From IMG/VR virus record IMGVR_UViG_3300006099_000051: a stretch of 35,717 nucleotides of DNA; one strand, written 5' to 3'. Of this stretch, positions 1,740 through 16,256 are shown in pieces. Source of the stretch: a virus. Below the pieces are notes generated by a model, which did no database searches, was not told the origin of the DNA, and worked only from the letters and a program-made list of their open reading frames with translations. The stretch's first letter is position 1; every line of letters begins with the position of its first letter. A program made the position numbers and the translations under genes.

Positions 1740-2720
1740 ATGGCAAGTCCTAATTCTAATTATAACGACATTTTTACCACAACGCTGGAAAGCCGCACTG
1801 GTAAACTTGCCGATAATGTGTCTGAGAACAACGCTTTGTTGTCGCGTTTGAAGGCAAAAAACAAAATTCGTCCGATTTCCGGCGGTTCTAAAATTGTGGA
1901 AGAACTGGAATACGGCGAAGGGGATATGGTGTGGTATAATGGTTACGACACAATTGATTACACGCCCAAGCAGCTGTTTACTGCCGCGGAATTTGACATG
2001 AAAATGTGCGCAGTGCCGGTGGCGATTACCGGCGAAGATATGCTGAAGAACAGCGGGCGCGAGCAGATGATTGATTTGTTTGAAAAGCGCATTGAAAACG
2101 CTCGTAAGACGATGATTAACAAAATGTCTGCTGCGATTTACGGTGATGGAACAACCGCGAAATCTATTGGCGGCTTAAAGCTGTTGGTGGCTGACAGTCC
2201 GGAAACTGGAACGGTTGGTGGCATTAACCGCGCCACTTCCGGAAATGAATTCTGGCGAAACAAAGCAATGACGGCTTCTGCGGCTTTGACATCTGAAACC
2301 ATCCGTCCGTTGATGGATAAGATGTTTCTGGCGTTAAGCCGTGGTACGGATAAGCCAGATATTATCGTGGCATCCGATGACATGTATTCGCTCTACGAGC
2401 AGTCTTTGACGCCGTTGCAGCGTTTTAGTGATGCCAAGTTGGCTGACGCAGGTTTCCAGACCTTAAAATATAAAGGTGTGGATGTCATCTATGACGGCGG
2501 CCAAGGCGGCAAATGTCCAGACAAACATATGTATTTCCTAAACACAGATTACATTTATCTGCGGCCGCATAAAGACCGGAATATGAAGGTTATCGGCGGG
2601 GATCGTATGGCAATCAATCAGGATGCATTGTATCGGATTATTGGCTGGGCTGGCAATATGACAATGTCTAATGCCAAATTGCAGGGTGTTTTGATAGATA
2701 AGGCAACGCCGGCGGCTTAG
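1740..2720 (+). CDS. Major capsid protein
   Basis: 326 aa with a strong RBS (aaggagaaagagaaATG). An intrinsic terminator follows directly. Position after the scaffold gene. Confidence 0.8.
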   Translation: MASPNSNYNDIFTTTLESRTGKLADNVSENNALLSRLKAKNKIRPISGGSKIVEELEYGEGDMVWYNGYDTIDYTPKQLFTAAEFDMKMCAVPVAITGEDMLKNSGREQMIDLFEKRIENARKTMINKMSAAIYGDGTTAKSIGGLKLLVADSPETGTVGGINRATSGNEFWRNKAMTASAALTSETIRPLMDKMFLALSRGTDKPDIIVASDDMYSLYEQSLTPLQRFSDAKLADAGFQTLKYKGVDVIYDGGQGGKCPDKHMYFLNTDYIYLRPHKDRNMKVIGGDRMAINQDALYRIIGWAGNMTMSNAKLQGVLIDKATPAA

Positions 2721-2799: not shown

Positions 2800-3366
2800 A
2801 TGGATGCAGATTTCGCGATGTTTCAGGAATTGTTAAATAATTCAAAAACGGAAGAAGGCGTTTGGGCCAGATTTTATGACCGTTCGGTAAAAACTGAACA
2901 GATTGGCAAAGACGGGCTGCCTGTGTTTGAAAATCGTACTTTTGTAGAAATTCGTACAAAAAACAACACTACCGATATTTATGACCAGCCGGCTGACCAA
3001 GAAAAAATTAAACGTTTCCCGGTGGAATATCAGCGTTATAAAATTGAGAAAAAGCAAAATGATAATGGTTCTCCTATTAATCAATTTGCTTTTTTGGATG
3101 CGGCGCAGATTGATAGTCTGCGGGTTCGCGGGATTTTTACGGTTGAGACTTTGGCGGAATTGCCCGATGACAAAGCCAAAGATTTGAACATTACGACTGA
3201 ACGCAATCTGGCTAAGAAATTTTTGGATAATGCCAAAGATAATAAGGCGTTGGTTGAGTGGGAAAAGAAAGAAGCCGAATATACGGCAGAAATTGAAGCG
3301 TTGCAAAAGAAAATTGCTGAATTACAGGCAAAGCTTGAAGAAATGGCTACGGCCAGCAAAAAATAA
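2800..3366 (+). CDS. Virion-module protein of unknown function with a C-terminal coiled coil
   Basis: 188-aa ORF in the head-tail gene string. The C-terminus (EAEYTAEIEALQKKIAELQAKLEE) has a heptad-like pattern. Confidence 0.6.
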   Translation: MDADFAMFQELLNNSKTEEGVWARFYDRSVKTEQIGKDGLPVFENRTFVEIRTKNNTTDIYDQPADQEKIKRFPVEYQRYKIEKKQNDNGSPINQFAFLDAAQIDSLRVRGIFTVETLAELPDDKAKDLNITTERNLAKKFLDNAKDNKALVEWEKKEAEYTAEIEALQKKIAELQAKLEEMATASKK

Positions 3367-3379
3367 GGTTGATTACTAT

Positions 3380-3408
3380 CCCGCTCCCTCATGCTTAAAG
3401 GGAGCGGG
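3380..3408 (+). other. Stable stem-loop without a U-tract, just upstream of an RBS
   Basis: cccgctccct (3380-3389) pairs with agggagcggg (3399-3408) around a 9-nt loop. It is followed by caggagagaaagATG. Confidence 0.6.
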
Positions 3409-5696: not shown

Positions 5697-5732
5697 GTAA
5701 ATTAAATGATGTTTTTTTTATATGGAGGGACA

Positions 5733-6617
5733 ATGTTACAAAATACTATTGGCGGTAAGTTGGGGTTGTTTGGCAGTAAAGCCAGTGGAAAAATGAATCT
5801 GGGAACTGCGATGGCTCTTAATACGTTGAACGGGATTGATACCAGCGATTATGATGCGGTGAACAGTAATTTTCAGGATATTGCCAAAGCGTTGAGCGAG
5901 AATAGCAATCTGGGAAACTGGACCTGGTCTGTTGACGGGTCGGATGAAGCCAGACAGCGTGCTGAAGCCGCGGCTTTTCAATCTTATCTGGATAAGACAG
6001 AGCCGGTTTATAAGCAGCAAACTAATGATTTGCAGACGAGATTAGTTAATCAAGGGCTAACACCGGGGAGTGAGGCCTATCAGCGGGCAATGACGGATTT
6101 GCAAAATAATCAGAATGATGCAACCAATCAGGCGGCTTATAATGCGACTTTAGCCGGGCAGAACGCGTTTACACAATCGTTGGGCGATCAGATAAATGCC
6201 GGGAATTTTGGCAATCAAGCGCAAGTAGGGGCGGTTAATCAGGCTTGGAATCTGTTGTCTAATTCAATGAGTGGTTATGATAAGAATATGGCCAGGGCTA
6301 ATTTGCTGACCGGATGGGATAACCAGCGACAAACGGCTAATCAGGCTAACGCTGCGGCTAATCAGCAAAATATGAATAATTTACTGCAAGCAGGCGCTAT
6401 GTTGGCGATGTTTTCCGATGCGAGGCTGAAAGAAAATATTCGGCGCGTTGGCTGGTTGGATAACGGGCTGCCGGTTTATTGCTATACTTTTAAAAATGAC
6501 AATCGTCCGCAAATCGGGCTTTTGGCGCAAGAAGTGCAAAAGGTTAAGCCGGAGGCGGTGAGCGAAACGGCTGACGGGTATTTGACGGTGAGATATGATT
6601 TGGCAACGGAGGCTTAA
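5733..6617 (+). CDS. Q/N-rich virion protein with a C-terminal S74-type intramolecular chaperone (autoproteolytic) domain
   Basis: RBS ggaggg upstream of the ATG at 5733. The C-terminus SDARLKENIRRVGWL...IGLLAQEVQKVKPEAV...YLTVRYDLA matches the SDxRxKxNI...AQEV signature of endosialidase and tail-fibre chaperone domains. Confidence 0.7.
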   Translation: MLQNTIGGKLGLFGSKASGKMNLGTAMALNTLNGIDTSDYDAVNSNFQDIAKALSENSNLGNWTWSVDGSDEARQRAEAAAFQSYLDKTEPVYKQQTNDLQTRLVNQGLTPGSEAYQRAMTDLQNNQNDATNQAAYNATLAGQNAFTQSLGDQINAGNFGNQAQVGAVNQAWNLLSNSMSGYDKNMARANLLTGWDNQRQTANQANAAANQQNMNNLLQAGAMLAMFSDARLKENIRRVGWLDNGLPVYCYTFKNDNRPQIGLLAQEVQKVKPEAVSETADGYLTVRYDLATEA

Positions 6618-6620
6618 ATA

Positions 6621-7457
6621 ATGCGGATGAAACAATTTAACAGAGACCAAGCGATTGTTAACACAATGAATCAGTTTACGCCGCAAGCGGTGTCAGGCGT
6701 GGATTGGGCAAAGGCTTTGGAAACCTATAATTCCGCCAGCAGGCAGGCACAGGAAGACAAGCACCGGCAGGAATTGGCTGCCGCTTTAGAGGGTGGAGAT
6801 CAGAGCAAGATTACTGGGGCAATGGCTAATTATAATCCGATGGCGGCGGCGCAGATGATGCTTCAAGAAAAAAATCGAACTGCTGACAGGGATTGGGAGC
6901 GTGAGAAGCTTAGTTTGCAAAATCAATATGCATTGAAGTTGTTTAAGGATAGAAGCGAATTAGCACAGCAGTTTCAAAAACCAGCGCTTTCTGAATTTGA
7001 CAAAGTTTTGCAACGAGAACAAGCGAAGAATTATGCCGCTGAATTGGAGAATCAAAGAAACTTAAAGTCTGTGATGCCTAAAATTGAGAATGATGTTGAC
7101 CGGCTTATGGAGTTGGCCGGAACAGCAACATATACAGGAACAGGAAAAGCTTTAGATTGGGTAGCATCACAGTTTGGTAAAGGAACAGAAGGGGCTGTTG
7201 CGCGAGCAGAAATGGAAAATATTGTTGAGAATAATGTTTTGCCGCAATTAAGAACATTGTTAGGTGCGCAATTCACGGAAAAAGAGGGAGAAAAAGTTAA
7301 ACAGACGATTATGGATCCTAACCGGACACCGGCAGAGCGTAGAGTTCAGTTGAAAAATTTTCTTAATTCAAAATATGATGCTTTACGGCAAAGTAATCAA
7401 AAATTGCAATTATTTGGCGGGAATAGTCAAAATAATGATCCATTGGGGATTTTGTAG
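6621..7457 (+). CDS. Putative internal virion (ejection) protein
   Basis: 278 aa and helical. RBS ggagg. Position equivalent to T7 gp14/15. Confidence 0.5.
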   Translation: MRMKQFNRDQAIVNTMNQFTPQAVSGVDWAKALETYNSASRQAQEDKHRQELAAALEGGDQSKITGAMANYNPMAAAQMMLQEKNRTADRDWEREKLSLQNQYALKLFKDRSELAQQFQKPALSEFDKVLQREQAKNYAAELENQRNLKSVMPKIENDVDRLMELAGTATYTGTGKALDWVASQFGKGTEGAVARAEMENIVENNVLPQLRTLLGAQFTEKEGEKVKQTIMDPNRTPAERRVQLKNFLNSKYDALRQSNQKLQLFGGNSQNNDPLGIL

Positions 7458-7466
7458 GAGGGGATT

Positions 7467-9299
7467 ATGAATATTGCAGAAATCAGACAGAAATATCCGC
7501 AATATAATGATTTGAGCGATGAACAATTGGCTAAAGGCTTGCATCAAAAATATTATGCCAATATGTCTTTTGACGATTTTTCGCAGAGGATTGGGTTGTC
7601 TAAAATGCCACAGATTACGGATGAGCAGCGAGAAGTTATTCAGGCTAGAAATAAAGCTTATGAAGATAAACAGGCTTCTCATTGGACGCAAAACCCTTTA
7701 ATACGGGGAGCTGTTGCTTTAGGACAGGGAATTTCAAACGCTTCGTTAAATCCAGCGGGTTATGTTGCTAGAAAAATAGGGATTGATACCAAACCATTGC
7801 AGGAGGAAAATGCAGCCGAGAGAGCTTTAGAAAAAGCAGGGGAATATGGCTTCAATGCGGCCGTTTTGTCTCCTGTCGGTAATTATCTGAAAGCTGCGGG
7901 CTTGCTTGGTAAAGGGCAAAGATTAGCCAGTAAAGCAGCGAGAGCGGTTTTGGCCCCGGGGAAAGGAGCCATGACGGCGGCGGCTTCTGGTGGTGCATTG
8001 GAGGGAGTTGTGGATCCGGAAAGTACAACTGGAAAAATTGCGGCAAATGTCGTCGGCGGTATGTTGGGCGGCGCAGCCGCAAATATTAGTAACCGTACTT
8101 ATCAGACCTTAAAAGGCGGTTTGGAAAATATTGCTGGCAATAAAAATGCAGCTCGGATTGTTCGCCGTGCTGCAAAGTTTGACGATGAGGTTGCGGAAAA
8201 GGTGTTGGCGGATATGTCTGATGCTGCCGCGGGGATTAATTCCCGAACAGCTGCCCAAATTGAAAGGAATTTAGGCAAGCCGAATTTAGATACAAAGAAA
8301 GGTATTGACGAAGCAAATAAAATTTATGGGAATTATATTTCTGATAATTTAAACAAAAGGACTGGATATGTAAAACAGCCGCGGAGTTTTAATGAATTTC
8401 AACAAGATGCATATGAAGATGCCTTAAAAGAAGGATTGAGGAAAGCGCCAAAGGGAGCTAAAGAATTTGGACTAGCTCATATAAACGAAGCAAAGAAAAT
8501 TCTTAATGACAAAATTGCAAACTCATATACGGTTAAAGGATTAGAGGTAATTCCTACCACAGATACGGCTTTGTTGACTGAAGTTAAAAAAACAGTGGAT
8601 AAAATGTTGCAGGGTGCTGGAATTAAACCATATGACGATCTTGCCAGGCAAGCAAAAGATATAGATTATTTTTATAGGCTTGGCAAAGAATATAAGCCAA
8701 GTAATATAAAATATTCAAATATAAATTTTCGCAAGCCTGCCAATGCTGCAGGAAATGAGTTAGAGTTTAATCGCTATATAGATAGGAAAAAAGCGTTTAA
8801 ATCTGGATTGTCTGAAAATATTTTATATAATTCGACGCCGCAGCAGAATTTATCCAGAGAAGCGAAGAAGTATCAAAATATTTTAAGCGAGCATCTTTAT
8901 GGAGATTCTCATAAGAAATTTTTGGAAGGAATTACTAAAAATGAGATAGATTATAATCGTTTGGCCAAGATAGGGAACTCAGCTGAAAATCATTTGGCAG
9001 TTCCGGAGGGAACGCGATTCTTCGGACGTGAACAGTTCGAAAGTAAAGGGGCTGGTGTTGGTGCCGCTTTGGATTATGCTTTGGGGCGATTAAATAGCGG
9101 ATATTATAAAAAAGCCGCACAACAGCTCTTAAACAGTAAAGGTGAGAATGTTAATGTTTTAACCAGCCCTGTTTATCAACAAATTCTGCGAAATATTTTG
9201 ACTGGAAGTGTTAAAGGGGCAGGTAGTAATATCAGAATAATGTCGTTACGGGATGTTGTGAAAAAATTGGGAGATAACGATGAATCTGCTAAAAAGTAA
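7467..9299 (+). CDS. Putative internal virion (ejection) protein, large
   Basis: 610 aa with Gly/Ala-rich hydrophobic stretches (GAMTAAASGGALEG...VVGGMLGGAAANI). Position equivalent to T7 gp15/16. Confidence 0.5.
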   Translation: MNIAEIRQKYPQYNDLSDEQLAKGLHQKYYANMSFDDFSQRIGLSKMPQITDEQREVIQARNKAYEDKQASHWTQNPLIRGAVALGQGISNASLNPAGYVARKIGIDTKPLQEENAAERALEKAGEYGFNAAVLSPVGNYLKAAGLLGKGQRLASKAARAVLAPGKGAMTAAASGGALEGVVDPESTTGKIAANVVGGMLGGAAANISNRTYQTLKGGLENIAGNKNAARIVRRAAKFDDEVAEKVLADMSDAAAGINSRTAAQIERNLGKPNLDTKKGIDEANKIYGNYISDNLNKRTGYVKQPRSFNEFQQDAYEDALKEGLRKAPKGAKEFGLAHINEAKKILNDKIANSYTVKGLEVIPTTDTALLTEVKKTVDKMLQGAGIKPYDDLARQAKDIDYFYRLGKEYKPSNIKYSNINFRKPANAAGNELEFNRYIDRKKAFKSGLSENILYNSTPQQNLSREAKKYQNILSEHLYGDSHKKFLEGITKNEIDYNRLAKIGNSAENHLAVPEGTRFFGREQFESKGAGVGAALDYALGRLNSGYYKKAAQQLLNSKGENVNVLTSPVYQQILRNILTGSVKGAGSNIRIMSLRDVVKKLGDNDESAKK

Positions 9300-9687
9300 A
9301 AATGAAGCTTTAGCTGAATTGTTGATGCAAGAAGGTGCTTTAACCGGACATGAAATTGCAGATCGTACAAGAAAACAATCTATTTTTGACCCTGCGGTTT
9401 TTTGGGAAACCTATAAAAATTTTAATCATTATAGACCATTGAGATTAAATGATAAGTATAAACATGCTATGATGAATTGTTTAGCTTCCCAACGAGGTAC
9501 AGGCGCTTTGCTGGGGATAGATATTTTATCTAGACTTAAAGAAAAATTTGATGTACTATCAGGAAATAACACGCAGAAAGAAAGCGATGAGGATATGAAA
9601 GCCAATGAAATTGGCCGCTTTTTAGGGTATAAATATCCTGAAGGAAATTGTGATGAAATGGTTCGAAAATATATTCGAAAAAAGTAA
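9280..9687 (+). CDS. Serum-amyloid-A-like domain protein
   Basis: 135 aa. FWETY...DKYKHAMMNCLASQRGTGALLG...DEDMKANEIGRFLGYKYP aligns by eye to the SAA core MWRAY...[22 protein letters not shown]...DQAANEWGRSGKDP. Confidence 0.55.
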   Translation: MNLLKSKNEALAELLMQEGALTGHEIADRTRKQSIFDPAVFWETYKNFNHYRPLRLNDKYKHAMMNCLASQRGTGALLGIDILSRLKEKFDVLSGNNTQKESDEDMKANEIGRFLGYKYPEGNCDEMVRKYIRKK

Positions 9688-10581: not shown

Positions 10582-10667
10582 GTTGCGGATAGTGCGAATA
10601 TATTGAATAAGCATAAGTGACTTATGGCACTGTTTCAATATCCGCAACACCTTGAAAATTGAAACAG
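10582..10667 (+). promoter_or_regulatory. Nested, mutually exclusive inverted repeats in the leader of the Bro/antirepressor-like gene
   Basis: GTTGCGGATA (10582-10591) pairs with TATCCGCAAC (10639-10648). CTGTTTCAAT (10630-10639) pairs with ATTGAAACAG (10658-10667), which abuts the AGGAG Shine-Dalgarno. There is a perfect 15-bp palindrome CATAAGTgACTTATG at 10612-10626. Confidence 0.6.
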
Positions 10668-10678
10668 GAGACCATAAG

Positions 10679-11317
10679 ATGACAAATTTAGTGCATTTTA
10701 ACAACCATAATATTGAGTTAATTCAGTATAATAATCAGCCGTATATGACACTCCGCCAAATCGGTGGTGCGCTAGAATATGCCCGTCCGGATAAAATATC
10801 CACAATATACAATGAACACAAATCTGAATTTGATGAAGAAATGTCTTGTCTTGTTCGTAGAGGCAATACAAGAGTTCGGATTTTCAACCGAGAGGGTGCT
10901 TGGCTGATTGGTATGTTTGCTCGTACTCCTAAGGCCGCAGAGTTTCGGCGTTGGGTTCTTAAAGTTTTGGGGACAACGATAGATAAAGTTTATCCCTGCG
11001 GGGAAGTTAATGTGCGGGAGCATACCCGCTCTTTGCTGAGCGGTAAGAAAGAGATTGTGCTTTCTGAAAAAGCCAAGACTGAAATCGGCGGGATTGTTAA
11101 ATCTTGTATGGCCGCGGCGATTCGCGAAGAGTTGGCTGATTTGCTGGATTTTACGCAAGTTAAGGGGCAAGAACTGTCAGACAGCAATTTGATTTATCTG
11201 CTTTATCGTTGGCATTCAACGAAGAGTGAAGTTGATTTGAAGAAATTTCAGCAGGTGACTTCGGAAAATCAGGCGTTAAAAATTAAATTGGCGAAAATTA
11301 AACAGGCTGTTGCTTAA
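10679..11317 (+). CDS. Bro-N / P22-antirepressor-N-terminal-like protein (putative antirepressor)
   Basis: RBS aggag upstream of the ATG at 10679. NIELIQYNNQPYMTLRQIGGALEY...REGAWLIGMFARTPKAAEFRRWVLKVL resembles Bro-N/Ant N-terminal domains. Confidence 0.6.
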   Translation: MTNLVHFNNHNIELIQYNNQPYMTLRQIGGALEYARPDKISTIYNEHKSEFDEEMSCLVRRGNTRVRIFNREGAWLIGMFARTPKAAEFRRWVLKVLGTTIDKVYPCGEVNVREHTRSLLSGKKEIVLSEKAKTEIGGIVKSCMAAAIREELADLLDFTQVKGQELSDSNLIYLLYRWHSTKSEVDLKKFQQVTSENQALKIKLAKIKQAVA

Positions 11318-11386: not shown

Positions 11387-11438
11387 GAAAAACTGTAACT
11401 GATTAGTTGCAGTTTGACGCCTTTTCTATTTGCTAAAA

Positions 11439-11468
11439 ACCGCTTTGCGTTGCAAGGCGGTTTTTTTT
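11439..11468 (+). terminator. Intrinsic terminator in the leader downstream of late promoter copy A
   Basis: accgctttgc-gtt-gcaaggcggt forms a 10-bp stem, followed by T8. It lies directly upstream of the fibre gene RBS aagggagg. Confidence 0.85.
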
Positions 11469-11485: not shown

Positions 11486-11848
11486 ATGCCGTTTGACAGT
11501 GAGGGGATATATACCCGTTTTCATAACTGGGAAGAAGACCGGGAGAATGACATCGATATTGTGACCGATCATGCGGATGAAGAGGACAATGGGTTTGCTG
11601 ATGGGTTGTCATTGACATTTTTACGGGATGGACGCGTACCTATGCAGGGTGCTATTGATATGGCACAAAATAAAATCAAAAACTTGGCGGATGGGACAGA
11701 GGATGGTGATGCAGTGAATCGTGGGCAATTGGTTGAGGCTGCCGAACAAATAGACGCCAAGGCTGCCGTTGTGGCAGATAAGTTTAAGGCGGTGGAAACT
11801 TTGCCGGAAGAAACGGATGCGGAAACTTTTTATTTTGTATTTGAGTGA
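11486..11848 (+). CDS. Tail-fibre N-terminal (anchor) module, short paralogue (120 aa)
   Basis: The ATG at 11486 follows RBS aagggagg. MPFDSEGIYTRFHNWEEDR...EEDNGFADGLSLTFLRDGR...DAVNRGQL is paralogous to the N-terminus of the next gene. It ends with ETLPEETDAETFYFVFE. Confidence 0.75.
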   Translation: MPFDSEGIYTRFHNWEEDRENDIDIVTDHADEEDNGFADGLSLTFLRDGRVPMQGAIDMAQNKIKNLADGTEDGDAVNRGQLVEAAEQIDAKAAVVADKFKAVETLPEETDAETFYFVFE

Positions 11849-11859
11849 TGAGGGCGGAT

Positions 11860-12873
11860 ATGGCGTTTGACAGCGAGGGGATTTATCATCGTTTGCATAA
11901 CTGGACGGAAGACAGGTTGAGCGGGATAAATAAGAAAATTCAAGCGGCGCGCATGGATGAGGAAGACAACGGATTTGCTGCCGCATTGTCGCAGACGTTT
12001 CTGCGTGACGGGCGGGCAGAGATGGAAAATCCGTTAAACTTGGCAGAACATAAAATTTTTAATCTGGCTCGAGGGGCTTTGGACAGTGATGCCGTTAATC
12101 GAAAACAGCTGAACGAGGCGGTTAAAAAAGCCGATGACGCGTTAAAAAAAATAGCGGAATCCTTTGTGATTGTGGAAACGCTGCCTGCCAAACCGGTTGA
12201 CAGCGTTTTTTATTTTACTGCAGAAAAGCGTTTATACAAGGGCAGCCGCCGGATTATTGAAGTGTATTACAGCAATACGGCTTTAACTCCGATTGAGGTT
12301 TTGCACATATATAAAGGTTCGCAAATAGTTTATAAAGCTGAAGCTTATGAACCGGGAACTGTTTTGATTAAGCAAGCCGGAGCTTATACTTATAAGGCTA
12401 AGCTTCCTAAAGGGGTTTTTAAAATTTGTATTGCCAGTGCCGGGGGGACAGGGACAGTTTGGGTTGCCAATGCAATGGGCTATGCTAACAGCGGCGGTTC
12501 AGGTGCAGCGGTAGAGATAACCATTTTTAATCCTAAGGCGCAAGAATTGGAAATTTATGCCCCTCCGGGATTATCCGGTTATGGCTCACAAACCGGCGGT
12601 GATGCTTATTTGAAGATAGCCGGTGTAGAAATAGCTAGGGCGAAAGGTGGTATTGGTTCAGGAAGTGGCGGGACGTATAGTGTCAATAGTTCTGCCGAGG
12701 AGGTTGAGATTCTGAAGATTGACGGGAAAAACGGAAACGGCAGCCGCACTGGATTTTCCGGAAGTGTGCGCGTGGCTTCGGTGTCGCCTTATGATGATTG
12801 GGGTTGGGCAAATGAGTCGTCATCTGGTGCTGGAGGGATGCGTGTGGAATATATGAAATATAAAAAGGAGTGA
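11860..12873 (+). CDS. Tail fibre protein (anchor domain, short shaft, Gly-rich C-terminal domain)
   Basis: MAFDSEGIYHRLHNWTEDR...EEDNGFAAALSQTFLRDGR...DAVNRKQL, with an internal ETLPAKPVDSVFYFTAE. The C-terminal Gly-rich domain is similar to the C-terminus of 13927..15846. Confidence 0.8.
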   Translation: MAFDSEGIYHRLHNWTEDRLSGINKKIQAARMDEEDNGFAAALSQTFLRDGRAEMENPLNLAEHKIFNLARGALDSDAVNRKQLNEAVKKADDALKKIAESFVIVETLPAKPVDSVFYFTAEKRLYKGSRRIIEVYYSNTALTPIEVLHIYKGSQIVYKAEAYEPGTVLIKQAGAYTYKAKLPKGVFKICIASAGGTGTVWVANAMGYANSGGSGAAVEITIFNPKAQELEIYAPPGLSGYGSQTGGDAYLKIAGVEIARAKGGIGSGSGGTYSVNSSAEEVEILKIDGKNGNGSRTGFSGSVRVASVSPYDDWGWANESSSGAGGMRVEYMKYKKE

Positions 12874-12877
12874 TAGT

Positions 12878-13228
12878 ATGGCAGGAGTGATGACGCCGGC
12901 GGGGATTACAATTCGCCGCGGGGATAGTTTTGATATTCTGATGAATTTCAAAGCCGGCAATAAAAATTTTGATTTGACCGAATGTCAGCTCAAGATGACA
13001 GTGCGGGACAGCGACAATAACGAATTGTTCAGCAAAGAAGGGGAAATTATCTCTGCTGCGGCCGGTACGGCGCGGATTAAGCTAACTCCCGCAGAAACAG
13101 ATGCGAATCCGGGAAATTATCAAACCGACATTCAAATTATTTTTAAAAACGGGGATGTTCACACAATTTATCCGCAAAACGTCAATGCGGTGGCTTATTT
13201 TAAACTGACGCCGGAGGTGACGTTATGA
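12878..13228 (+). CDS. Small beta-rich fibre-cluster protein (116 aa)
   Basis: RBS aaaaaggag. ITIRRGDSFDILMNF...LKMTVRD...ARIKLTPAETD...YQTDIQI looks like an Ig-like sandwich pattern. The function is not identified. Confidence 0.6.
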   Translation: MAGVMTPAGITIRRGDSFDILMNFKAGNKNFDLTECQLKMTVRDSDNNELFSKEGEIISAAAGTARIKLTPAETDANPGNYQTDIQIIFKNGDVHTIYPQNVNAVAYFKLTPEVTL

Positions 13229-13917
13229 CGGTTGTGAACGAAGAAAGCACCTTGGTGGTGTTTGATGGTTTTGAACGCCAACAGTTGGAAGTGATGTTTC
13301 AGGATGAAGTGGTTCTGGATATTGAAGTGCCATTGTTTTACATCAAATCCGGTGAAGAAGAAATAAAGCATTATGTTAATACGGTGGCGAAACCCGATAT
13401 TAATCTTTTTACGGATGGCAAAAAAGCGGAATTGGATGCTGTTTCAGCCGATGAACAGAAAGAGATTGAAGAATATTCAGCCGGAAGGCAGCAGATTATT
13501 GAAAACAGTTTGGATAACTATGCCGCCGGTATTCGGACAGAGCTTGACAATTATGTCGAGGAAACGATTAAACCGGATTTAAATGTGCATGAGGCAGAGC
13601 TGAAAGCGGAATTTGATACTAATGCCGCTGAAAAAACGGCGAGTTTTAATGCTAATGCCGCTGAAAAGCAGACGGAAGTTAATGCTTTGGCAATTCAGGC
13701 GGCGGCTTCTGCCTCTGCGGCAGCGGAGGCAGCAACTGAGGCGGCGGAAAGTGCGACAGCGGCGGAAGGGTTTGCTTCAGCTGCGGCGGTTTCGGCAACT
13801 GAGGCGGCCAGTTCGGCGGCTCAGGCGCAAACGGTGTTAAACCGGGTGACTTGGGTTGTGGGGGCAGAATTGCCAACAGAACCGGTAATTGGGACAATGT
13901 ATTTTATATATGAATAG
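13225..13917 (+). CDS. Tail fibre shaft protein
   Basis: ATGA overlap with the upstream gene. Ala/Ser/Glu-rich helical repeats (AAASASAAAEAATEAAESATAAEGFASAAAVSATEAASSAAQA). It ends with ELPTEPVIGTMYFIYE. Confidence 0.75.
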   Translation: MTVVNEESTLVVFDGFERQQLEVMFQDEVVLDIEVPLFYIKSGEEEIKHYVNTVAKPDINLFTDGKKAELDAVSADEQKEIEEYSAGRQQIIENSLDNYAAGIRTELDNYVEETIKPDLNVHEAELKAEFDTNAAEKTASFNANAAEKQTEVNALAIQAAASASAAAEAATEAAESATAAEGFASAAAVSATEAASSAAQAQTVLNRVTWVVGAELPTEPVIGTMYFIYE

Positions 13918-13926
13918 GGGCAAAAT

Positions 13927-15846
13927 ATGCCAGTATATCACGAAAACAGCCAAATTCGCGAAGTGGGGGAAAACGGGGTATATTTTTGCCCGGGGAAGAG
14001 TAATTGTCTGACAGATGTGCCTAAAAACATTCATTTAGAGTTTGAATGGGGAGATTGGGAGAATCCCGCTTTATATGTGGATAAGATTGGTGATGCCGGG
14101 GGAAATCTTTACGCTGTTCGAGCCAGTTCTACCTACCCAGGTCACGATGCAAGAAAAGCTTTTGACTGGCAGAATGGTAAAGATGATATATGGGAGGCGG
14201 CAAGCAGGACTTTAAATGATTGGCTGGAGTTTTACGCACCTTTTCCGGTCAAGTTAAATTACATTCATTTTACAAATCGTCCAGGTTATGTTACTGGATA
14301 TAGCGTTGTGAGGTTGACGGCATCTAATGACGGGGTCAATTATGTGGAATTAAAACAGTTTCCGTATACTTTAGGAAATTCTTCCCAGTGGGATATTCAG
14401 GTGAATTCTAATGTTGGATATAAGTATTTTCGTTTGTCGGCGGGAGATGGTGCAACGCTTATTGGTGACGGTGATGCTAAATTTGCCTTTGGTGAGGTTC
14501 ATTTGGTGGGGCAGGCTAAAAATGTCCTCACTCTTAAAGCTGGAAGCAAAATCTACTGGCCGGATGGGCGGTCGATAGTGTTAGGACAGGATCTGGCGAA
14601 TGATAATTTATTAACATCCGGAGATTTAATGTTTTTGTGTTACACTCCGACACATCCAGAAAGTAATCAAAAGAATATTAATTATATACTTAATTCTAAT
14701 CATTACACGCAGACAACGCCACCAGCGACAGGTTCAGTGTTTAACCCAGACACTAAGAGGATAGATTATTATAACAATAGTGTGATATCTGTGACGGATT
14801 ACAGTTTGCCGTTTTGTTCAGTAACAAACACTAACGGTGTTGTGCAGATTGTTGATGTTTTTGATTGGTTTGTGCCGCTAAAAAAGAGTTTGTTTCTTTT
14901 GCCCGAGGTTAAGTATTTGAGTGCTAATGGTACTGTTGAAAATCTTTATCAAAATGAAGAAAATGAAATAACCGAACTGTTGTATAATGAAGGAACTTGG
15001 ACAACTGGTGAAAATTTTGAACTGTTTGTTCATTCAAACAATATCTGGTATAATTTTAATAATTATACACAAAAAGATATGCCTTTAAATAATGCTTATT
15101 CATCATGGTATAATCCAGCAACTAATAAGCTTTTATATAACAGCTCCGCAGATAATGTCAAAGATATATCTGAATGGGTGGAGCGGCGAAACTTTTTAGC
15201 TTTGGGCGCGTTTGATTTAGATAGTAATAAAGGGATTTCTAAAGTGCATTTGAAAGAGGTGCAGGAGGCTAACAGTTTGCTACCTGTTCATGAGATTTAT
15301 TGTGGCAATCAGTTGGTGTATGATTTTCAGGTTTATACTCCGGGGGATATATTGGGTGAGATTGCCAATCCGGGTGATGGGGCAAACAATGTTTTTTATG
15401 TCGATATGCCTAAGCCCGGCGTCTTAAAATATTGGGGCGTTGGTGGTGGTAATGGTAATACTTGGTGCTATATCGGCTGTAATTATGCTGGTTCGGCAGC
15501 GGGATTTATCGGTAAATTGTATTTTAATAGAAAATGTCGGCTGCGTGTTATTGTCGGTCGTAATCATGAAGCCAGCCAGTTGGCTGTTGCGGAGTGGGGA
15601 ACGGAGGATTGGACAACATTGATCCAATGTAATTACGGGGCTAATGCTGGTGGCGGTGGTGGCGGCAGCGGTGGTTCTGTTTACGTCAATCGTGACAGTA
15701 CATTTAATACCTTTTTTGATATAGAACTTGAACGAAACGGCTATGGCGGAAGTAATTCAACATATGGCGGTTCTGTTTGGAATGGTTATGGACGTGCCGG
15801 CACAAACGGTTATGGCAAACTTGAGTATGTGAGGAAAGAGCAATGA
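13927..15846 (+). CDS. Tail fibre / receptor-binding protein with a discoidin-like domain and a Gly-rich C-terminal domain
   Basis: 639 aa. AVRASSTYPGHDARKAFDWQ...WLEFYAPFPVKLNYIHFTNR...RLTASNDGVNYVEL...YKYFRLSA is F5/8-type-C-like. The C-terminus (GVGGGNGNTW...GGGGGGSGGS...GYGKLEYV) is paralogous to that of 11860..12873. Confidence 0.75.
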   Translation: MPVYHENSQIREVGENGVYFCPGKSNCLTDVPKNIHLEFEWGDWENPALYVDKIGDAGGNLYAVRASSTYPGHDARKAFDWQNGKDDIWEAASRTLNDWLEFYAPFPVKLNYIHFTNRPGYVTGYSVVRLTASNDGVNYVELKQFPYTLGNSSQWDIQVNSNVGYKYFRLSAGDGATLIGDGDAKFAFGEVHLVGQAKNVLTLKAGSKIYWPDGRSIVLGQDLANDNLLTSGDLMFLCYTPTHPESNQKNINYILNSNHYTQTTPPATGSVFNPDTKRIDYYNNSVISVTDYSLPFCSVTNTNGVVQIVDVFDWFVPLKKSLFLLPEVKYLSANGTVENLYQNEENEITELLYNEGTWTTGENFELFVHSNNIWYNFNNYTQKDMPLNNAYSSWYNPATNKLLYNSSADNVKDISEWVERRNFLALGAFDLDSNKGISKVHLKEVQEANSLLPVHEIYCGNQLVYDFQVYTPGDILGEIANPGDGANNVFYVDMPKPGVLKYWGVGGGNGNTWCYIGCNYAGSAAGFIGKLYFNRKCRLRVIVGRNHEASQLAVAEWGTEDWTTLIQCNYGANAGGGGGGSGGSVYVNRDSTFNTFFDIELERNGYGGSNSTYGGSVWNGYGRAGTNGYGKLEYVRKEQ

Positions 15847-16256
15847 ATGCGGAAAATTTAATTAAAAAATATACACCGGTTTATTTAAAGGCGCATCCAT
15901 GTCTTTGTGGCTATTGGGTTATCAGTTATTGGCTACGGTTTTATCCTGACAGCGGCAAAGCTGTGCAGCCGGGGGATGAGATGACACTTGATGAGGCTGA
16001 TGAGCTTTTACGTCAACATCTTGATAAGCTGGAACTGCCCGAGCGTCGGTGGTTGCCTAACGGGGAGTGGCCAAATAATCAGCGGGAAGCTTTAAAATCA
16101 ATCATGCATTATTTGCAGGAGGATTGGGCTGGCTCGGAATTAAAGCACGCGCTGGAAGCCGGTGATTGGGCTGTTGCAAAGGAACTTTGGCTTAATCTCG
16201 GCATGCCGGAATGGCGGCAGGAAGAGGTAGAGCTGTTCTTCGGGGCTGCCGGATAA
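15843..16256 (+). CDS. GH24 lysozyme-like protein lacking the catalytic signature
   Basis: ATGA overlap with the fibre gene. The GYWVISYW...MTLDEADELLRQHL...NQREALKSIMHYL...LEAGDW...EEVELF spacing mirrors phage lysozymes, but the E/D/T catalytic positions are replaced. Confidence 0.5.
   Translation: MNAENLIKKYTPVYLKAHPCLCGYWVISYWLRFYPDSGKAVQPGDEMTLDEADELLRQHLDKLELPERRWLPNGEWPNNQREALKSIMHYLQEDWAGSELKHALEAGDWAVAKELWLNLGMPEWRQEEVELFFGAAG

What the first reader, a model, noticed from the sequence alone, without database searches (positions are those of the whole stretch)
13225..15846. Fibre shaft and receptor-binding ORFs are in the same frame, separated by one TAG, at a junction that is fused in the neighbouring paralogue
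ORF 13225..13917 ends ...ELPTEPVIGTMYFIYE-TAG. Twelve nt later, in the same frame, ORF 13927..15846 begins MPVYHENSQIREV.... In the adjacent fibre (11860..12873) the equivalent segments are continuous: ...ETLPAKPVDSVFYFTAEKRLYKGSRRIIEV.... The short paralogue (11486..11848) also stops exactly after ...ETLPEETDAETFYFVFE. So ETLP-x5-8-(F/M)YFxxE marks a module boundary that is a C-terminus in two proteins and an internal joint in a third. The single in-frame TAG could mean an evolutionary split into two subunits that reassemble. It could instead mean low-level stop read-through producing a fused long fibre alongside the separate shaft.
Basis: partly seen in the sequence, partly recalled or inferred. 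Interest (0 to 1): 0.65.

Follow-up and report, generated by a model that had tools for sequence, protein, structure and literature searches.

The report
Split tail fibre with docking joint
Two neighbouring phage tail-fibre genes that share a reading frame across one TAG are ordinary, separately translated genes: the shaft protein ends in a widespread C-terminal joint motif next to which the receptor-binding protein is encoded (docking inferred, not shown), and nothing points to stop-codon read-through.

Summary
ORF 13225..13917 ends ...ELPTEPVIGTMYFIYE-TAG, and after 9 nt ORF 13927..15846 starts in the same frame. The same motif ends the short paralogue and is internal in 11860..12873.

Read-through is not supported.
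- The downstream gene has its own Shine-Dalgarno-like site (tAGGGG) and ATG.
- Eleven independent lineages have the same shaft-motif/partner junction. Only 4 are in frame, which is chance level, and their stops are TAA, TAG or TGA.
- In one relative, 1.5 kb of toxin-antitoxin genes separates the two genes.
- No protein in 5.8 billion clusters spans both ORFs.
- The window has no tRNA gene.
- Within the window, 10 of 28 adjacent gene pairs share a frame, and 3 are separated by a single stop.

The "split subunits" reading is supported.
- The two ORFs together are colinear with single-chain ~639-aa fibres of relatives.
- An exhaustive profile search found the motif module (...KFQVVxxLPxxPxxxxFYFxxE) at the extreme C-terminus in 82 of 82 motif-reaching hits.
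- The next gene usually begins with [ILV]YxG strand repeats followed by a glycine-rich receptor-binding domain.

This is a two-component fibre of a known general kind with a joint motif I could not find described. Docking itself is inferred, not shown.

The parts
11486..11848 (+). p1: short fibre paralogue (120 aa). It has an N-terminal anchor, a YadA-stalk-like coil and the terminal joint motif LPEETDAETFYFVFE (11801..11845), then TGA. No partner gene with the strand repeats follows it.
   Evidence: (PF05662, 33.8 bits, above the cut-off of 28.4). Conserved at 77% identity in L003/L004.
11860..12873 (+). p2: fused fibre (337 aa). Same anchor and coil as p1, joint motif LPAKPVDSVFYFTAE internal (12181..12225), [ILV]YxG strand repeats (12226..12348), then a glycine-rich C-terminal domain (from about 12349).
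   Evidence: A profile of partner N-termini matches aa ~125-163 at E = 6e-6. Homologues P0140-P0142 are fused in the same way. The glycine-rich domain is 89% identical (BLASTP local alignment) to a stand-alone protein of a myovirus (P0143).
12878..13228 (+). p3: 116-aa protein resembling the BppU N-terminal domain (phrog_1084). It overlaps the p4 start (ATGA) and precedes p4-type anchors in every relative examined. It probably attaches the fibre to the tail.
   Evidence: PF10651, 21.1 bits, below the cut-off of 23.1; phrog_1084, E = 9e-17; 51% identity to the L013 gene.
13225..13917 (+). p4: proximal or shaft subunit (230 aa). Conserved N-terminal anchor (LEVMFQDEVVLDIEVPLFYIKSGEEE, 13285..13377), an Ala-rich coiled coil, and the terminal joint motif LPTEPVIGTMYFIYE (13870..13914). 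The stop is TAG at 13915..13917.
13916..13929 (+). Intergenic initiation region. A Shine-Dalgarno-like AGGGG overlaps the TAG stop, followed by 6 nt and the ATG of p5.
   Evidence: Read directly from the sequence. The junction 6621..7457|7467 has the same design (TAGGAGGGGATTATG). No terminator-like site lies between p4 and p5.
13927..15846 (+). p5: distal or receptor-binding subunit (639 aa). It has a short N-terminal segment (MPVYHENSQIREV...), an inserted F5/8 type C (discoidin) domain (about 14116..14445), and a central domain homologous to the distal part of single-chain fibres (from 14524). A strand motif PVHEIYCGNQLVY (15283..15336) and a glycine-rich C-terminal domain follow, running to 15843.
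   Evidence: (PF00754, 32.7 bits, above the cut-off of 28.2).
15843..16256 (+). 137-aa gene overlapping the p5 stop (ATGA). It travels with p5 as a cassette (70% identity in the siphovirus L009, where p5 is 73% identical). It may be a fibre accessory protein and has a weak match to the phage lysozyme family.

Best explanation
p4 and p5 are the proximal and distal subunits of one tail fibre of a roughly 36-kb temperate phage that looks podovirus-like. They are made as two polypeptides. Translation of p4 stops at an ordinary TAG. Ribosomes start p5 at its own site (AGGGG, 6 nt, ATG), which overlaps that stop, as is usual for coupled genes in compact phage operons. The shared frame is a coincidence. 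p4 is held on the tail by its conserved N-terminal anchor, probably together with p3. It ends in a short conserved C-terminal module, LPxx[PT]xxxx[FM]YFxxE. I infer that this module is the joint onto which the N-terminal part of the separately made receptor-binding protein docks non-covalently. In p2 the same joint is covalently continuous, and in most relatives of p4 the whole fibre is one chain without the joint. So this fibre family evolves by fusing, splitting and swapping modules at this boundary. p5 carries the specificity parts: a discoidin-type sugar-binding domain and a glycine-rich tip domain. Shown: the gene structure, the lack of frame conservation, the colinearity with single-chain fibres, the strictly C-terminal position of the motif and its synteny with partner genes. 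Inferred: the physical docking and its stoichiometry.
For: (1) p5 has its own initiation signals, and there is no terminator between the genes.
(2) Eleven independent adjacent shaft-motif/partner junctions were examined. Four are in frame: the window, the L013/L029/L031 lineage, L040 and L045. Seven are out of frame: L009, L017, L028, L039, L042, L043 and L046. The binomial P(>=4 of 11) is 0.53. L040 and L042 have near-identical motif and partner sequences yet differ in frame. Stops are TAA, TAG or TGA.
(3) In L018 the partner gene lies 1,534 nt downstream, behind two toxin-antitoxin pairs.
(4) L009 is a siphovirus with a GpJ-like tail protein. It has a p5 homologue (73% identity) behind an unrelated 223-aa protein. 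That protein shares with p4 only the last ~14 residues (PTDPVAGKYYAVSE versus PTEPVIGTMYFIYE). The junction there is out of frame, and the 137-aa downstream gene has come along. So the motif variant travels with its partner.
(5) p4 aa 1-153 aligns to aa 1-202 of the single-chain 639-aa fibre P0004 (47% identity). p5 aa 200-402 aligns to aa 260-471 of the same protein (28% identity, E = 2e-18). More than 100 such single-chain clusters exist.
(6) A profile search of 1.84 billion representatives gave 1,284 hits at E <= 0.001. Of the best 150, 82 reach the motif, and all 82 end 0-4 residues after it. There were no genuine internal cases.
(7) Partner genes begin with [ILV]YxGxxx[IV] repeats and carry Gly_rich_2 (PF21722) domains. 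The same repeat follows the motif inside p2.
(8) TAG is a working stop here. The major capsid gene 1740..2720 ends at TAG and matches its family profile up to position 328 of 329.
(9) The window has no tRNA gene. No protein in 5.8 billion clusters covers both p4 and p5; the best coverage of the fused query was 73%. An independent 99%-identical copy (L012) has the same TAG, spacer and ATG.
Against: No experiment or confident structure shows that p5 binds the p4 terminus. The AlphaFold model of the fused paralogue p2 has pLDDT below 50 across the joint. The N-terminus of p5 (MPVYHENSQIREV) matches the partner-repeat profile only weakly; the significant matches are in p2, with a weak one at p5 aa 454-466. 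p1 ends in the motif but has no obvious partner, so the motif can exist without an adjacent docking protein. L041 likewise shows a terminator-like hairpin after the shaft. Low-level read-through of any stop codon cannot be excluded by sequence alone. The host and its suppressor tRNAs are unknown.
Confidence: 0.75

Rival explanations
1. Programmed or leaky read-through of the TAG makes a minor 873-aa fused fibre alongside separate p4 and p5, as with the Qbeta A1 protein.
For: The two ORFs share a frame, and only one stop and 9 nt separate them. The fused state is viable at this joint, as p2 shows. Two other lineages also have a single in-frame stop (L040 TAA+3 nt; L045 TAG+3 nt).
Against: The frame is conserved in only 4 of 11 junctions, which is chance level. 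Relatives mostly use TAA. L018 has 1.5 kb between the genes. p5 has its own ribosome-binding site and ATG. There is no suppressor tRNA in the window and no fused homologue in the databases. Single-stop in-frame junctions occur at two unrelated gene pairs in the same window. TAG ends the major capsid gene at the end of its family profile.
Confidence: 0.04
2. The motif is only a structural cap at the fibre end, or a conserved recombination linker. p5 attaches to the virion through another protein (for example p3 or the tail itself), so p4 and p5 are two independent fibres.
For: p1 ends in the motif with no partner gene. L041 has a terminator-like hairpin after its motif-ended shaft and no partner in the next 240 nt. 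The N-terminus of p5 matches the partner-repeat profile poorly. No structural evidence for a contact was obtained.
Against: p4+p5 are colinear with single-chain fibres. The joint is covalently continuous in p2 and its homologues. The partner gene directly follows the motif in 11 of 13 lineages examined. In L009 an unrelated shaft carries the p4-like variant of the motif together with the p5-like partner. p5 and the small glycine-rich partners have no recognisable tail-attachment domain of their own.
Confidence: 0.17
3. The TAG is a recent nonsense mutation or an assembly error in a formerly fused gene, so p5 is a dying remnant.
For: Most relatives of p4 are single-chain fibres.
Against: The same TAG, spacer and ATG are present in an independent sample (L012). 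The 73%-identical homologue in L009 has the same split, with its own stop, spacer and start. A ribosome-binding site and ATG sit immediately after the stop. p5 is an intact 639-aa ORF. The single-chain relatives lack the motif altogether, so the split is not a point mutation of that form.
Confidence: 0.03

Closest known systems
T-even long tail fibre tip: gp37 with the separately encoded gp38 adhesin (phage S16 / T2 type)
   Same: [quoted passage not shown] In other phages the equivalent glycine-rich domain is part of the fibre chain. The window shows both states side by side: p2 is fused and p4|p5 is split.
   Different: No sequence relationship was detected. The PDB sequence searches with p5 and p2 gave no credible match: three chance-level hits to a mitochondrial ribosomal protein for p5 and none for p2. 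gp38 attaches through short helices on a hydrophobic platform of gp37 (PMC9608196). Here the joint is a C-terminal LPxxPxxxxFYFxxE tail next to [ILV]YxG strand repeats. p5 is much larger and has an added discoidin domain. The stoichiometry is unknown.
Branched receptor-binding protein systems of Klebsiella podophages (KP32, K11, KP34): the anchor or branching domain of RBP1 plus a conserved docking peptide of RBP2
   Same: A tail-attached protein presents a docking site for a second, separately encoded receptor-binding protein that carries a short conserved terminal peptide. The modules can be exchanged between phages (PMC8262889, PMC13352976).
   Different: In those systems RBP1 is itself a complete receptor-binding protein and RBP2 branches off it. 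Here p4 has no distal domain and the joint is end to end. The motifs are unrelated, and here the conserved short peptide is on the C-terminus of the anchor subunit.
Cyanophage Pam3 gp24: a single-chain fibre with a helical shaft, a TNF-like domain and a glycine-rich domain
   Same: It has the same order of parts as p2: N-terminal docking helix or coil, then a beta domain with glycine-rich motifs that recognises the receptor (PMC9608196). The top Foldseek hits for the p2 model are the ALK/LTK TNF-like plus glycine-rich domains, the fold class that paper reports for gp24.
   Different: The fold match is weak (E about 0.01, TM about 0.2, model pLDDT 54). Pfam Gly_rich_2 does not hit p2 or p5 directly. 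Pam3 gp24 has no LPxxP...FYF joint that I know of.
Two-protein L-shaped fibres of T5-like phages DT57C and DT571/2 (LtfA/LtfB), compared with the single Ltf of T5
   Same: A fibre that is one protein in one phage is made of two separately encoded proteins in close relatives (PMC4728585).
   Different: The architecture there is branched rather than end to end, and the families and motifs are unrelated.
Qbeta A1 read-through protein (programmed stop read-through in a phage structural gene)
   Same: Only the formal arrangement is shared: a structural ORF followed in frame by more coding sequence.
   Different: In Qbeta the extension has no start of its own and depends on a leaky UGA (own knowledge). 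Here the downstream gene has its own ribosome-binding site and ATG, and neither the frame nor the stop codon is conserved in relatives.

Membership tests
Programmed stop-codon read-through | The downstream coding sequence depends on the upstream ORF for initiation (it has no start site of its own). | tested here: not met
   AGGGG, 6 nt, then ATG directly after the stop. The homologue in L009 also has its own ATG.
Programmed stop-codon read-through | The in-frame relation and the type of stop codon are conserved among relatives. | tested here: not met
   4 of 11 junctions are in frame (P = 0.53 under chance). Stops are TAA, TAG or TGA. In L018 the genes are 1.5 kb apart.
Programmed stop-codon read-through | A suppressor tRNA or stop-codon reassignment is available. 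| tested here: inconclusive
   There is no tRNA gene in the window. TAG ends the major capsid gene at the end of its family profile. The host is unknown, so host suppressors cannot be checked.
Programmed stop-codon read-through | A fusion polypeptide is present in virions. | not testable with these tools
   This needs proteomics. No predicted protein in 5.8 billion clusters spans both ORFs.
Multi-subunit (split) phage tail fibre with a non-covalent joint | Adjacent, separately initiated genes in the fibre module that are together colinear with single-chain fibres of relatives. | tested here: met
Multi-subunit (split) phage tail fibre with a non-covalent joint | Conserved terminal peptides at the junction that go together with the partner. 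| tested here: met
   The motif is C-terminal in 82 of 82 motif-reaching hits. The partner gene is adjacent in 11 of 13 lineages. The p4-like motif variant accompanies the p5-like partner in L009, behind an otherwise unrelated shaft.
Multi-subunit (split) phage tail fibre with a non-covalent joint | A physical complex of the two subunits exists. | not testable with these tools
   Only monomer prediction is available, and the p2 joint was modelled at pLDDT below 50.
Glycine-rich receptor-binding domain (Pfam Gly_rich_2 PF21722; structural class of S16 gp38 / Pam3 gp24) | Match to the family profile above its cut-off. | tested here: not met
   p2 and the p5 C-terminal domain have no PF21722 hit, even at E <= 5. 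The stand-alone partners in L018 (26.3 bits, above the cut-off of 24.3) and L045 do hit.
Glycine-rich receptor-binding domain (Pfam Gly_rich_2 PF21722; structural class of S16 gp38 / Pam3 gp24) | Fold of a TNF-like beta sandwich plus a glycine-rich lattice. | tested here: inconclusive
   13 of the top 16 Foldseek PDB hits for the p2 model are ALK/LTK glycine-rich domains, but E is about 0.01-0.1, TM about 0.2, and the model pLDDT is 54.
F5/8 type C (discoidin) domain, PF00754 | Match to the family profile above its cut-off. | tested here: met
   p5 aa ~64-173 scores 32.7 bits against a cut-off of 28.2 when aa 37-202 is scanned alone. The full-length scan gave no hit at E <= 0.1.
BppU N-terminal domain, PF10651 (for p3) | Match to the family profile above its cut-off. 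| tested here: inconclusive
   21.1 bits against a cut-off of 23.1. There is a clear match to phrog_1084, a family of unknown function.

The most novel reading that the evidence does not exclude
The C-terminal tail ...(KFQVV)xxLPxxPxxxx[FY]YFxxE-stop, together with the N-terminal [ILV]YxGxxx[IV] strand repeats of the next gene, may be a very widespread plug-and-socket joint that I could not find described. It occurs in over a thousand protein clusters and in phages whose gene content marks them as podovirus-like, siphovirus and a 314-kb giant phage. Through it, unrelated fibre shafts could accept interchangeable receptor-binding tips, either non-covalently (the usual state) or as a fusion (p2). 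If so, p1 would be a motif-ended shaft without a tip. It might accept p5 as well, or co-assemble with p2 to set how many tip domains a fibre carries.
Probability: 0.4. Interest if true: 0.55.

Novelty: new variant of a known kind. Interest (0 to 1): 0.33.

Why it matters
The striking part of the finding, possible stop-codon read-through in a fibre gene, turns out to be an ordinary gene junction, so no recoding mechanism needs to be invoked. What remains useful is the boundary itself: a short, easily recognised C-terminal motif that marks where fibre shafts end and exchangeable receptor-binding tips begin. The window shows it fused (p2), split (p4|p5) and orphan (p1). Relatives show the p5 cassette in a phage of a different tail type, and the p2-type tip domain as a stand-alone protein in a third tail type. 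If the motif is confirmed as a docking joint, it would give a rule for three tasks: annotating two-component fibres in metagenomic phages, predicting which tip belongs to which shaft, and choosing swap points for host-range engineering. This would parallel the use already made of the docking peptides of Klebsiella phages.

Tried and rejected
- DNA search of the locus against GenBank phages found only one 115-nt match. tblastn of a partner protein and of a 39-aa motif peptide against that collection found nothing. tblastn of the shaft P0173 found only the generic fibre repeat upstream of the motif. I therefore found no phage in that collection (GenBank records, some of them uncultured) that carries the joint.
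- Searching with p4 alone in viral contigs found nothing. An alignment of the anchor family was needed.
- The fused 873-aa query retrieved no spanning protein. I first misread its many 639-aa hits as matches to the glycine-rich domain. Alignment A2 showed that they are single-chain p4-type fibres.
The stricter pattern found 6 viral contigs, 5 of them genuine.
- The PDB sequence searches with p5 and p2 gave nothing credible: three chance-level hits for p5 and none for p2.
- AlphaFold of p2 with a 9-sequence alignment was too poor at the joint to test strand pairing. Foldseek on that model was only suggestive.
- The partner N-terminus profile did not significantly match the N-terminus of p5, so I do not claim that p5 starts with the canonical repeats.
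- A full-text search for five motif strings found no paper.
- I considered TAG reassignment and rejected it. Genes are intact under the standard code, TAG ends the capsid gene at the end of its profile, and only 6 of 55 ORFs end in TAG.
- I considered a p3/p4 frameshift product but did not pursue it. The ATGA overlap is the usual coupling arrangement and is also seen at p5 and the next gene.
Full report
**1. The observation**

- ORF 13225..13917 (p4, 230 aa) ends ...GAELPTEPVIGTMYFIYE and stops at TAG (13915-13917).
- Nine bases follow (gggcaaaat).
- ORF 13927..15846 (p5, 639 aa) then starts at ATG in the same frame.
- A read-through product would be 873 aa.
- The short paralogue p1 (11486..11848, 120 aa) ends ...ETLPEETDAETFYFVFE-TGA.
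- In p2 (11860..12873, 337 aa) the motif ETLPAKPVDSVFYFTAE is internal (aa 108-122). It runs straight on into KRLYKGSRRIIEVYY...HIYKGSQIVYK and a glycine-rich C-terminal domain.

**2. Context**

The window looks like a complete temperate phage of about 36 kb with a short-tailed (podovirus-like) gene set.
- It encodes a large terminase, a major capsid protein, tail and ejection-type proteins, no tape measure or sheath, and an integrase-sized gene on the minus strand.
- It has no tRNA gene.
- The fibre block is p1, p2, p3 (12878..13228), p4, p5, then a 137-aa gene (15843..16256).
- p3 is a 116-aa protein resembling the BppU N-terminal domain. It belongs to phrog_1084 and overlaps the p4 start by ATGA.
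- p5 contains an F5/8 type C (discoidin) domain at aa ~64-173 (32.7 bits, cut-off 28.2). This fits a role in receptor (sugar) binding.

**3. Is the shared frame meaningful?**

It is not, on several independent grounds.
- *Initiation.* The TAG is part of a Shine-Dalgarno-like tAGGGG placed 6 nt before the ATG. The junction 6621..7457|7467 in the same window has the same design (TAGGAGGGGATTATG). No terminator-like site lies between p4 and p5.
- *Within the window.* 10 of 28 adjacent + strand gene pairs share a frame (36%, expected 33%). Three pairs are separated by a single in-frame stop.
- *Stop usage.* TAG is a working stop. 6 of 55 ORFs end in TAG, including the major capsid gene, whose match to its family profile runs to position 328 of 329.
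- *Close copy.* An independent 99%-identical copy (L012) has the same TAG, spacer and ATG.
- *No fused protein.* A search of 5.8 billion protein clusters with the artificial fusion found no protein covering both halves. The best coverage was 73%, which is p5 alone.

**4. Relatives: fused or split, and in which frame?**

*Closest phages (L003/L004, 34-35 kb).* They keep p1, p2 and p3. Their p4 homologue is a single 617-aa chain, and it continues from the coiled coil directly into a distal domain homologous to p5 aa 200-374. It has no LP...YF...E motif. The glycine-rich domain is a separate 187-aa gene there. More than 100 clusters of such ~600-640-aa single-chain fibres exist. In P0004, aa 1-202 align with p4 aa 1-153 (47% identity) and aa 260-471 align with p5 aa 200-402 (28% identity, E = 2e-18). 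So p4+p5 are colinear with a one-piece fibre.

Relative to the single-chain form, the window has two insertions.
- The first is the joint itself: ...TVLNRVTWVVGAELPTEPVIGTMYFIYE, the stop, then MPVYHENSQIREVGENGVYFCPG.
- The second is the discoidin domain.

*The only other full-length p5 homologue (P0002, 73% identity).* It lies in a siphovirus with a GpJ-like tail protein (L009).
- Its upstream protein (223 aa) is unrelated to p4 except for its last residues, ...GRPTDPVAGKYYAVSE.
- These are followed by TAG, 5 nt and ATG, which is out of frame.
- The 137-aa downstream gene has come along (70% identity).

*Other members of the p4 anchor family.* They occur in prophages of gut alphaproteobacterial genomes assembled from metagenomes, and they carry many alternative distal ends. 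Several end in ...KFQVVxxLPEEPDEHVFYFVTE-stop and are followed by a separate ~225-aa gene.

*Further motif-ended shafts.* More came from a DNA pattern scan and from the profile search.

| Junction | Stop | Spacer (nt) | Frame |
|---|---|---|---|
| Window | TAG | 9 | same |
| L013/L031, L029 (one lineage) | TAA / TGA | 6 | same |
| L040 | TAA | 3 | same |
| L045 | TAG | 3 | same |
| L009 | TAG | 5 | different |
| L017 | TAA | 1 | different |
| L028 | TAA | 1 (or a 29-nt overlap, depending on the start chosen) | different |
| L039 | TAA | 35 | different |
| L042 | TAA | 4 | different |
| L043 | TAA | 14 | different |
| L046 | TGA | 5 | different |

- That is 4 of 11 in frame, with P(>=4) = 0.53 under a one-in-three expectation.
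- L040 and L042 have near-identical motif and partner sequences and differ in frame.
- In L018 the partner gene lies 1,534 nt downstream, behind MazE/Fic and RelB/YafQ modules.
- In L041 a terminator-like hairpin follows the shaft.

**5. What the motif is**

I built a 61-column profile from three motif-ended shafts and searched it against 1.84 billion cluster representatives.
- It gave 1,284 hits at E <= 0.001.
- Of the best 150, 82 extend to the motif, and every one of them ends 0-4 residues later.
- A regular expression finds 77 terminal and no genuine internal occurrences.
- The remaining hits match only the generic fibre repeat upstream.
- The consensus is ...ATTxx[IV]NxKFQVVxxLPxxPDxNxFYF[IV]P/T-E-stop.

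The motif is therefore a C-terminal end module of fibre proteins 73-875 aa long. The internal (fused) state seen in p2 and its homologues P0140-P0142 is the exception.

The genes that follow the motif start with two or three [ILV]YxGxxx[IV] strands. Examples are MPIYKGNQEISDIYVGGTKIDSIYKGSQLVW and MTLYKGSTKIDSIFKGSTVISKVYKGSTLVY. Most then carry a glycine-rich domain, which matches Pfam Gly_rich_2 in L018 and L045.

A profile of these N-termini, run against all 630 stop-to-stop segments of the window, picks p2 aa ~125-163 first (E = 6e-6). p5 comes second but only weakly (E = 0.06), mainly through aa 454-466 just before its glycine-rich domain. The N-terminus of p5 itself does not match significantly.

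**6. Mechanism proposed**

*Shown:*
- There are two genes, each with its own start.
- The frame is not conserved in relatives.
- p4+p5 are colinear with one-piece fibres.
- The motif is strictly C-terminal and syntenic with partner genes.
- The motif variant travels with its partner into an unrelated shaft.

*Inferred:*
- The C-terminal LPxxPxxxxFYFxxE tail of the shaft subunit is the docking joint for the separately made distal subunit, and this joint is covalently closed in p2.
- p3 and the N-terminal anchor of p4 hold the fibre on the tail.
- p5 supplies specificity through its discoidin domain and glycine-rich tip.

I could not test the contact. The AlphaFold model of p2 (9-sequence alignment) has a mean pLDDT of 54 and is below 50 across the joint.

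Its better-modelled C-terminal core gives ALK/LTK TNF-like plus glycine-rich domains as the top Foldseek hits (E about 0.01, TM about 0.2). This is the fold class reported for the Pam3 gp24 fibre tip and related to the S16 gp38 adhesin (PMC9608196). The match is suggestive only.

**7. Comparison with known systems**

The general principle is well known.
- Fibres are built from exchangeable modules that can be fused or split (PMC10684548).
- gp38 adhesins are separately encoded glycine-rich tips on gp37 (PMC9608196, PMC12032242).
- Klebsiella podophages dock a second receptor-binding protein through a conserved peptide (PMC8262889, PMC13352976).
- T5-like phages split Ltf into LtfA and LtfB (PMC4728585).

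The particular joint is different. It consists of a C-terminal LPxxP...FYF..E tail with [ILV]YxG strand repeats on the partner. A full-text search for five motif strings found no paper, and I found no phage in the GenBank collection that carries it. I therefore rate it a new variant of a known kind, with the caveat that absence from the searchable literature is not proof.

**8. Verdict**

Read-through is not supported (about 4%). A split two-subunit fibre with a conserved joint is the best explanation (about 75%, with the docking step itself at about 60%). Interest is modest. The recoding idea falls away, but the boundary motif is a useful and apparently undescribed marker of where fibre shafts end and exchangeable tips begin.

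Noticed in passing
window 11486..11848 (p1): p1 is a conserved (77% identity in L003/L004) 120-aa shaft that ends in the joint motif. No partner gene with strand repeats follows it; the next gene is its own longer, fused paralogue p2. It might accept p5, co-assemble with p2, or be a tip-less fibre.
   Followed up: partly
window 15843..16256; L009 7944..8345: The 137-aa gene overlapping the p5 stop matches the phage lysozyme family only weakly (31 bits). It moves together with p5 between a podovirus-like phage and a siphovirus (70% identity). This suggests a fibre accessory or assembly role rather than an endolysin role.
   Followed up: partly
window 5706..6617|6621 and 6621..7457|7467: Two more gene pairs are in frame across a single stop (TAA + 3 nt; TAG + 9 nt with TAGGAGGGGATTATG). 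This shows that the arrangement is routine in this genome.
   Followed up: yes
L001 7069..7632, L003 7043..7633, L047 6195..7624; P0143, P0144: There is a second, different joint type for the same kind of glycine-rich tip domain. Fibres end ...SDAG(S/A)xGG-stop and are followed by a stand-alone ~190-207-aa glycine-rich protein that starts MGxPxxxDPLGSGNSxPY. P0143 is 89% identical to the p2 tip domain but sits in a myovirus baseplate module.
   Followed up: partly
L018 2527..2606 and 3312..3391: An exact 80-nt direct repeat flanks the RelB/YafQ toxin-antitoxin insertion between the shaft gene and the partner gene. The repeat comprises a terminator-like hairpin, a ribosome-binding site and the first 9 codons of the partner gene (MAGKIYKGS). 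It looks like a footprint of how the insertion arrived.
   Followed up: partly
window 14116..14445 (p5 aa ~64-173): An F5/8 type C (discoidin) domain is inserted between ...NIHLEFEW and VLTLKAGSKIY. These two segments are contiguous in the single-chain relatives (L003, P0004).
   Followed up: partly
window 9280..9687: A 135-aa protein matches the Pfam serum amyloid A family above its cut-off (40.2 bits against 30.8). This is unexpected in a phage tail region. An 82%-identical copy is present in L003.
   Followed up: no
window 10652..11317 and 11435..11465: A Bro-N / anti-repressor-like gene lies in a low-GC stretch (33%) between the tail genes and the fibre genes. It is followed by a strong terminator-like hairpin (14-bp stem plus a T run) just before p1. 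It looks like an inserted accessory gene (a moron).
   Followed up: no
L009, L045, L046 junctions: The conserved final Glu codon (GAG) of the shaft motif, together with the base before it, often forms the GGAG ribosome-binding site of the partner gene (ccGGAGTAGaatATG, tcGGAGTAGaacaaATG). The end of the motif and the partner's start signal therefore overlap.
   Followed up: no
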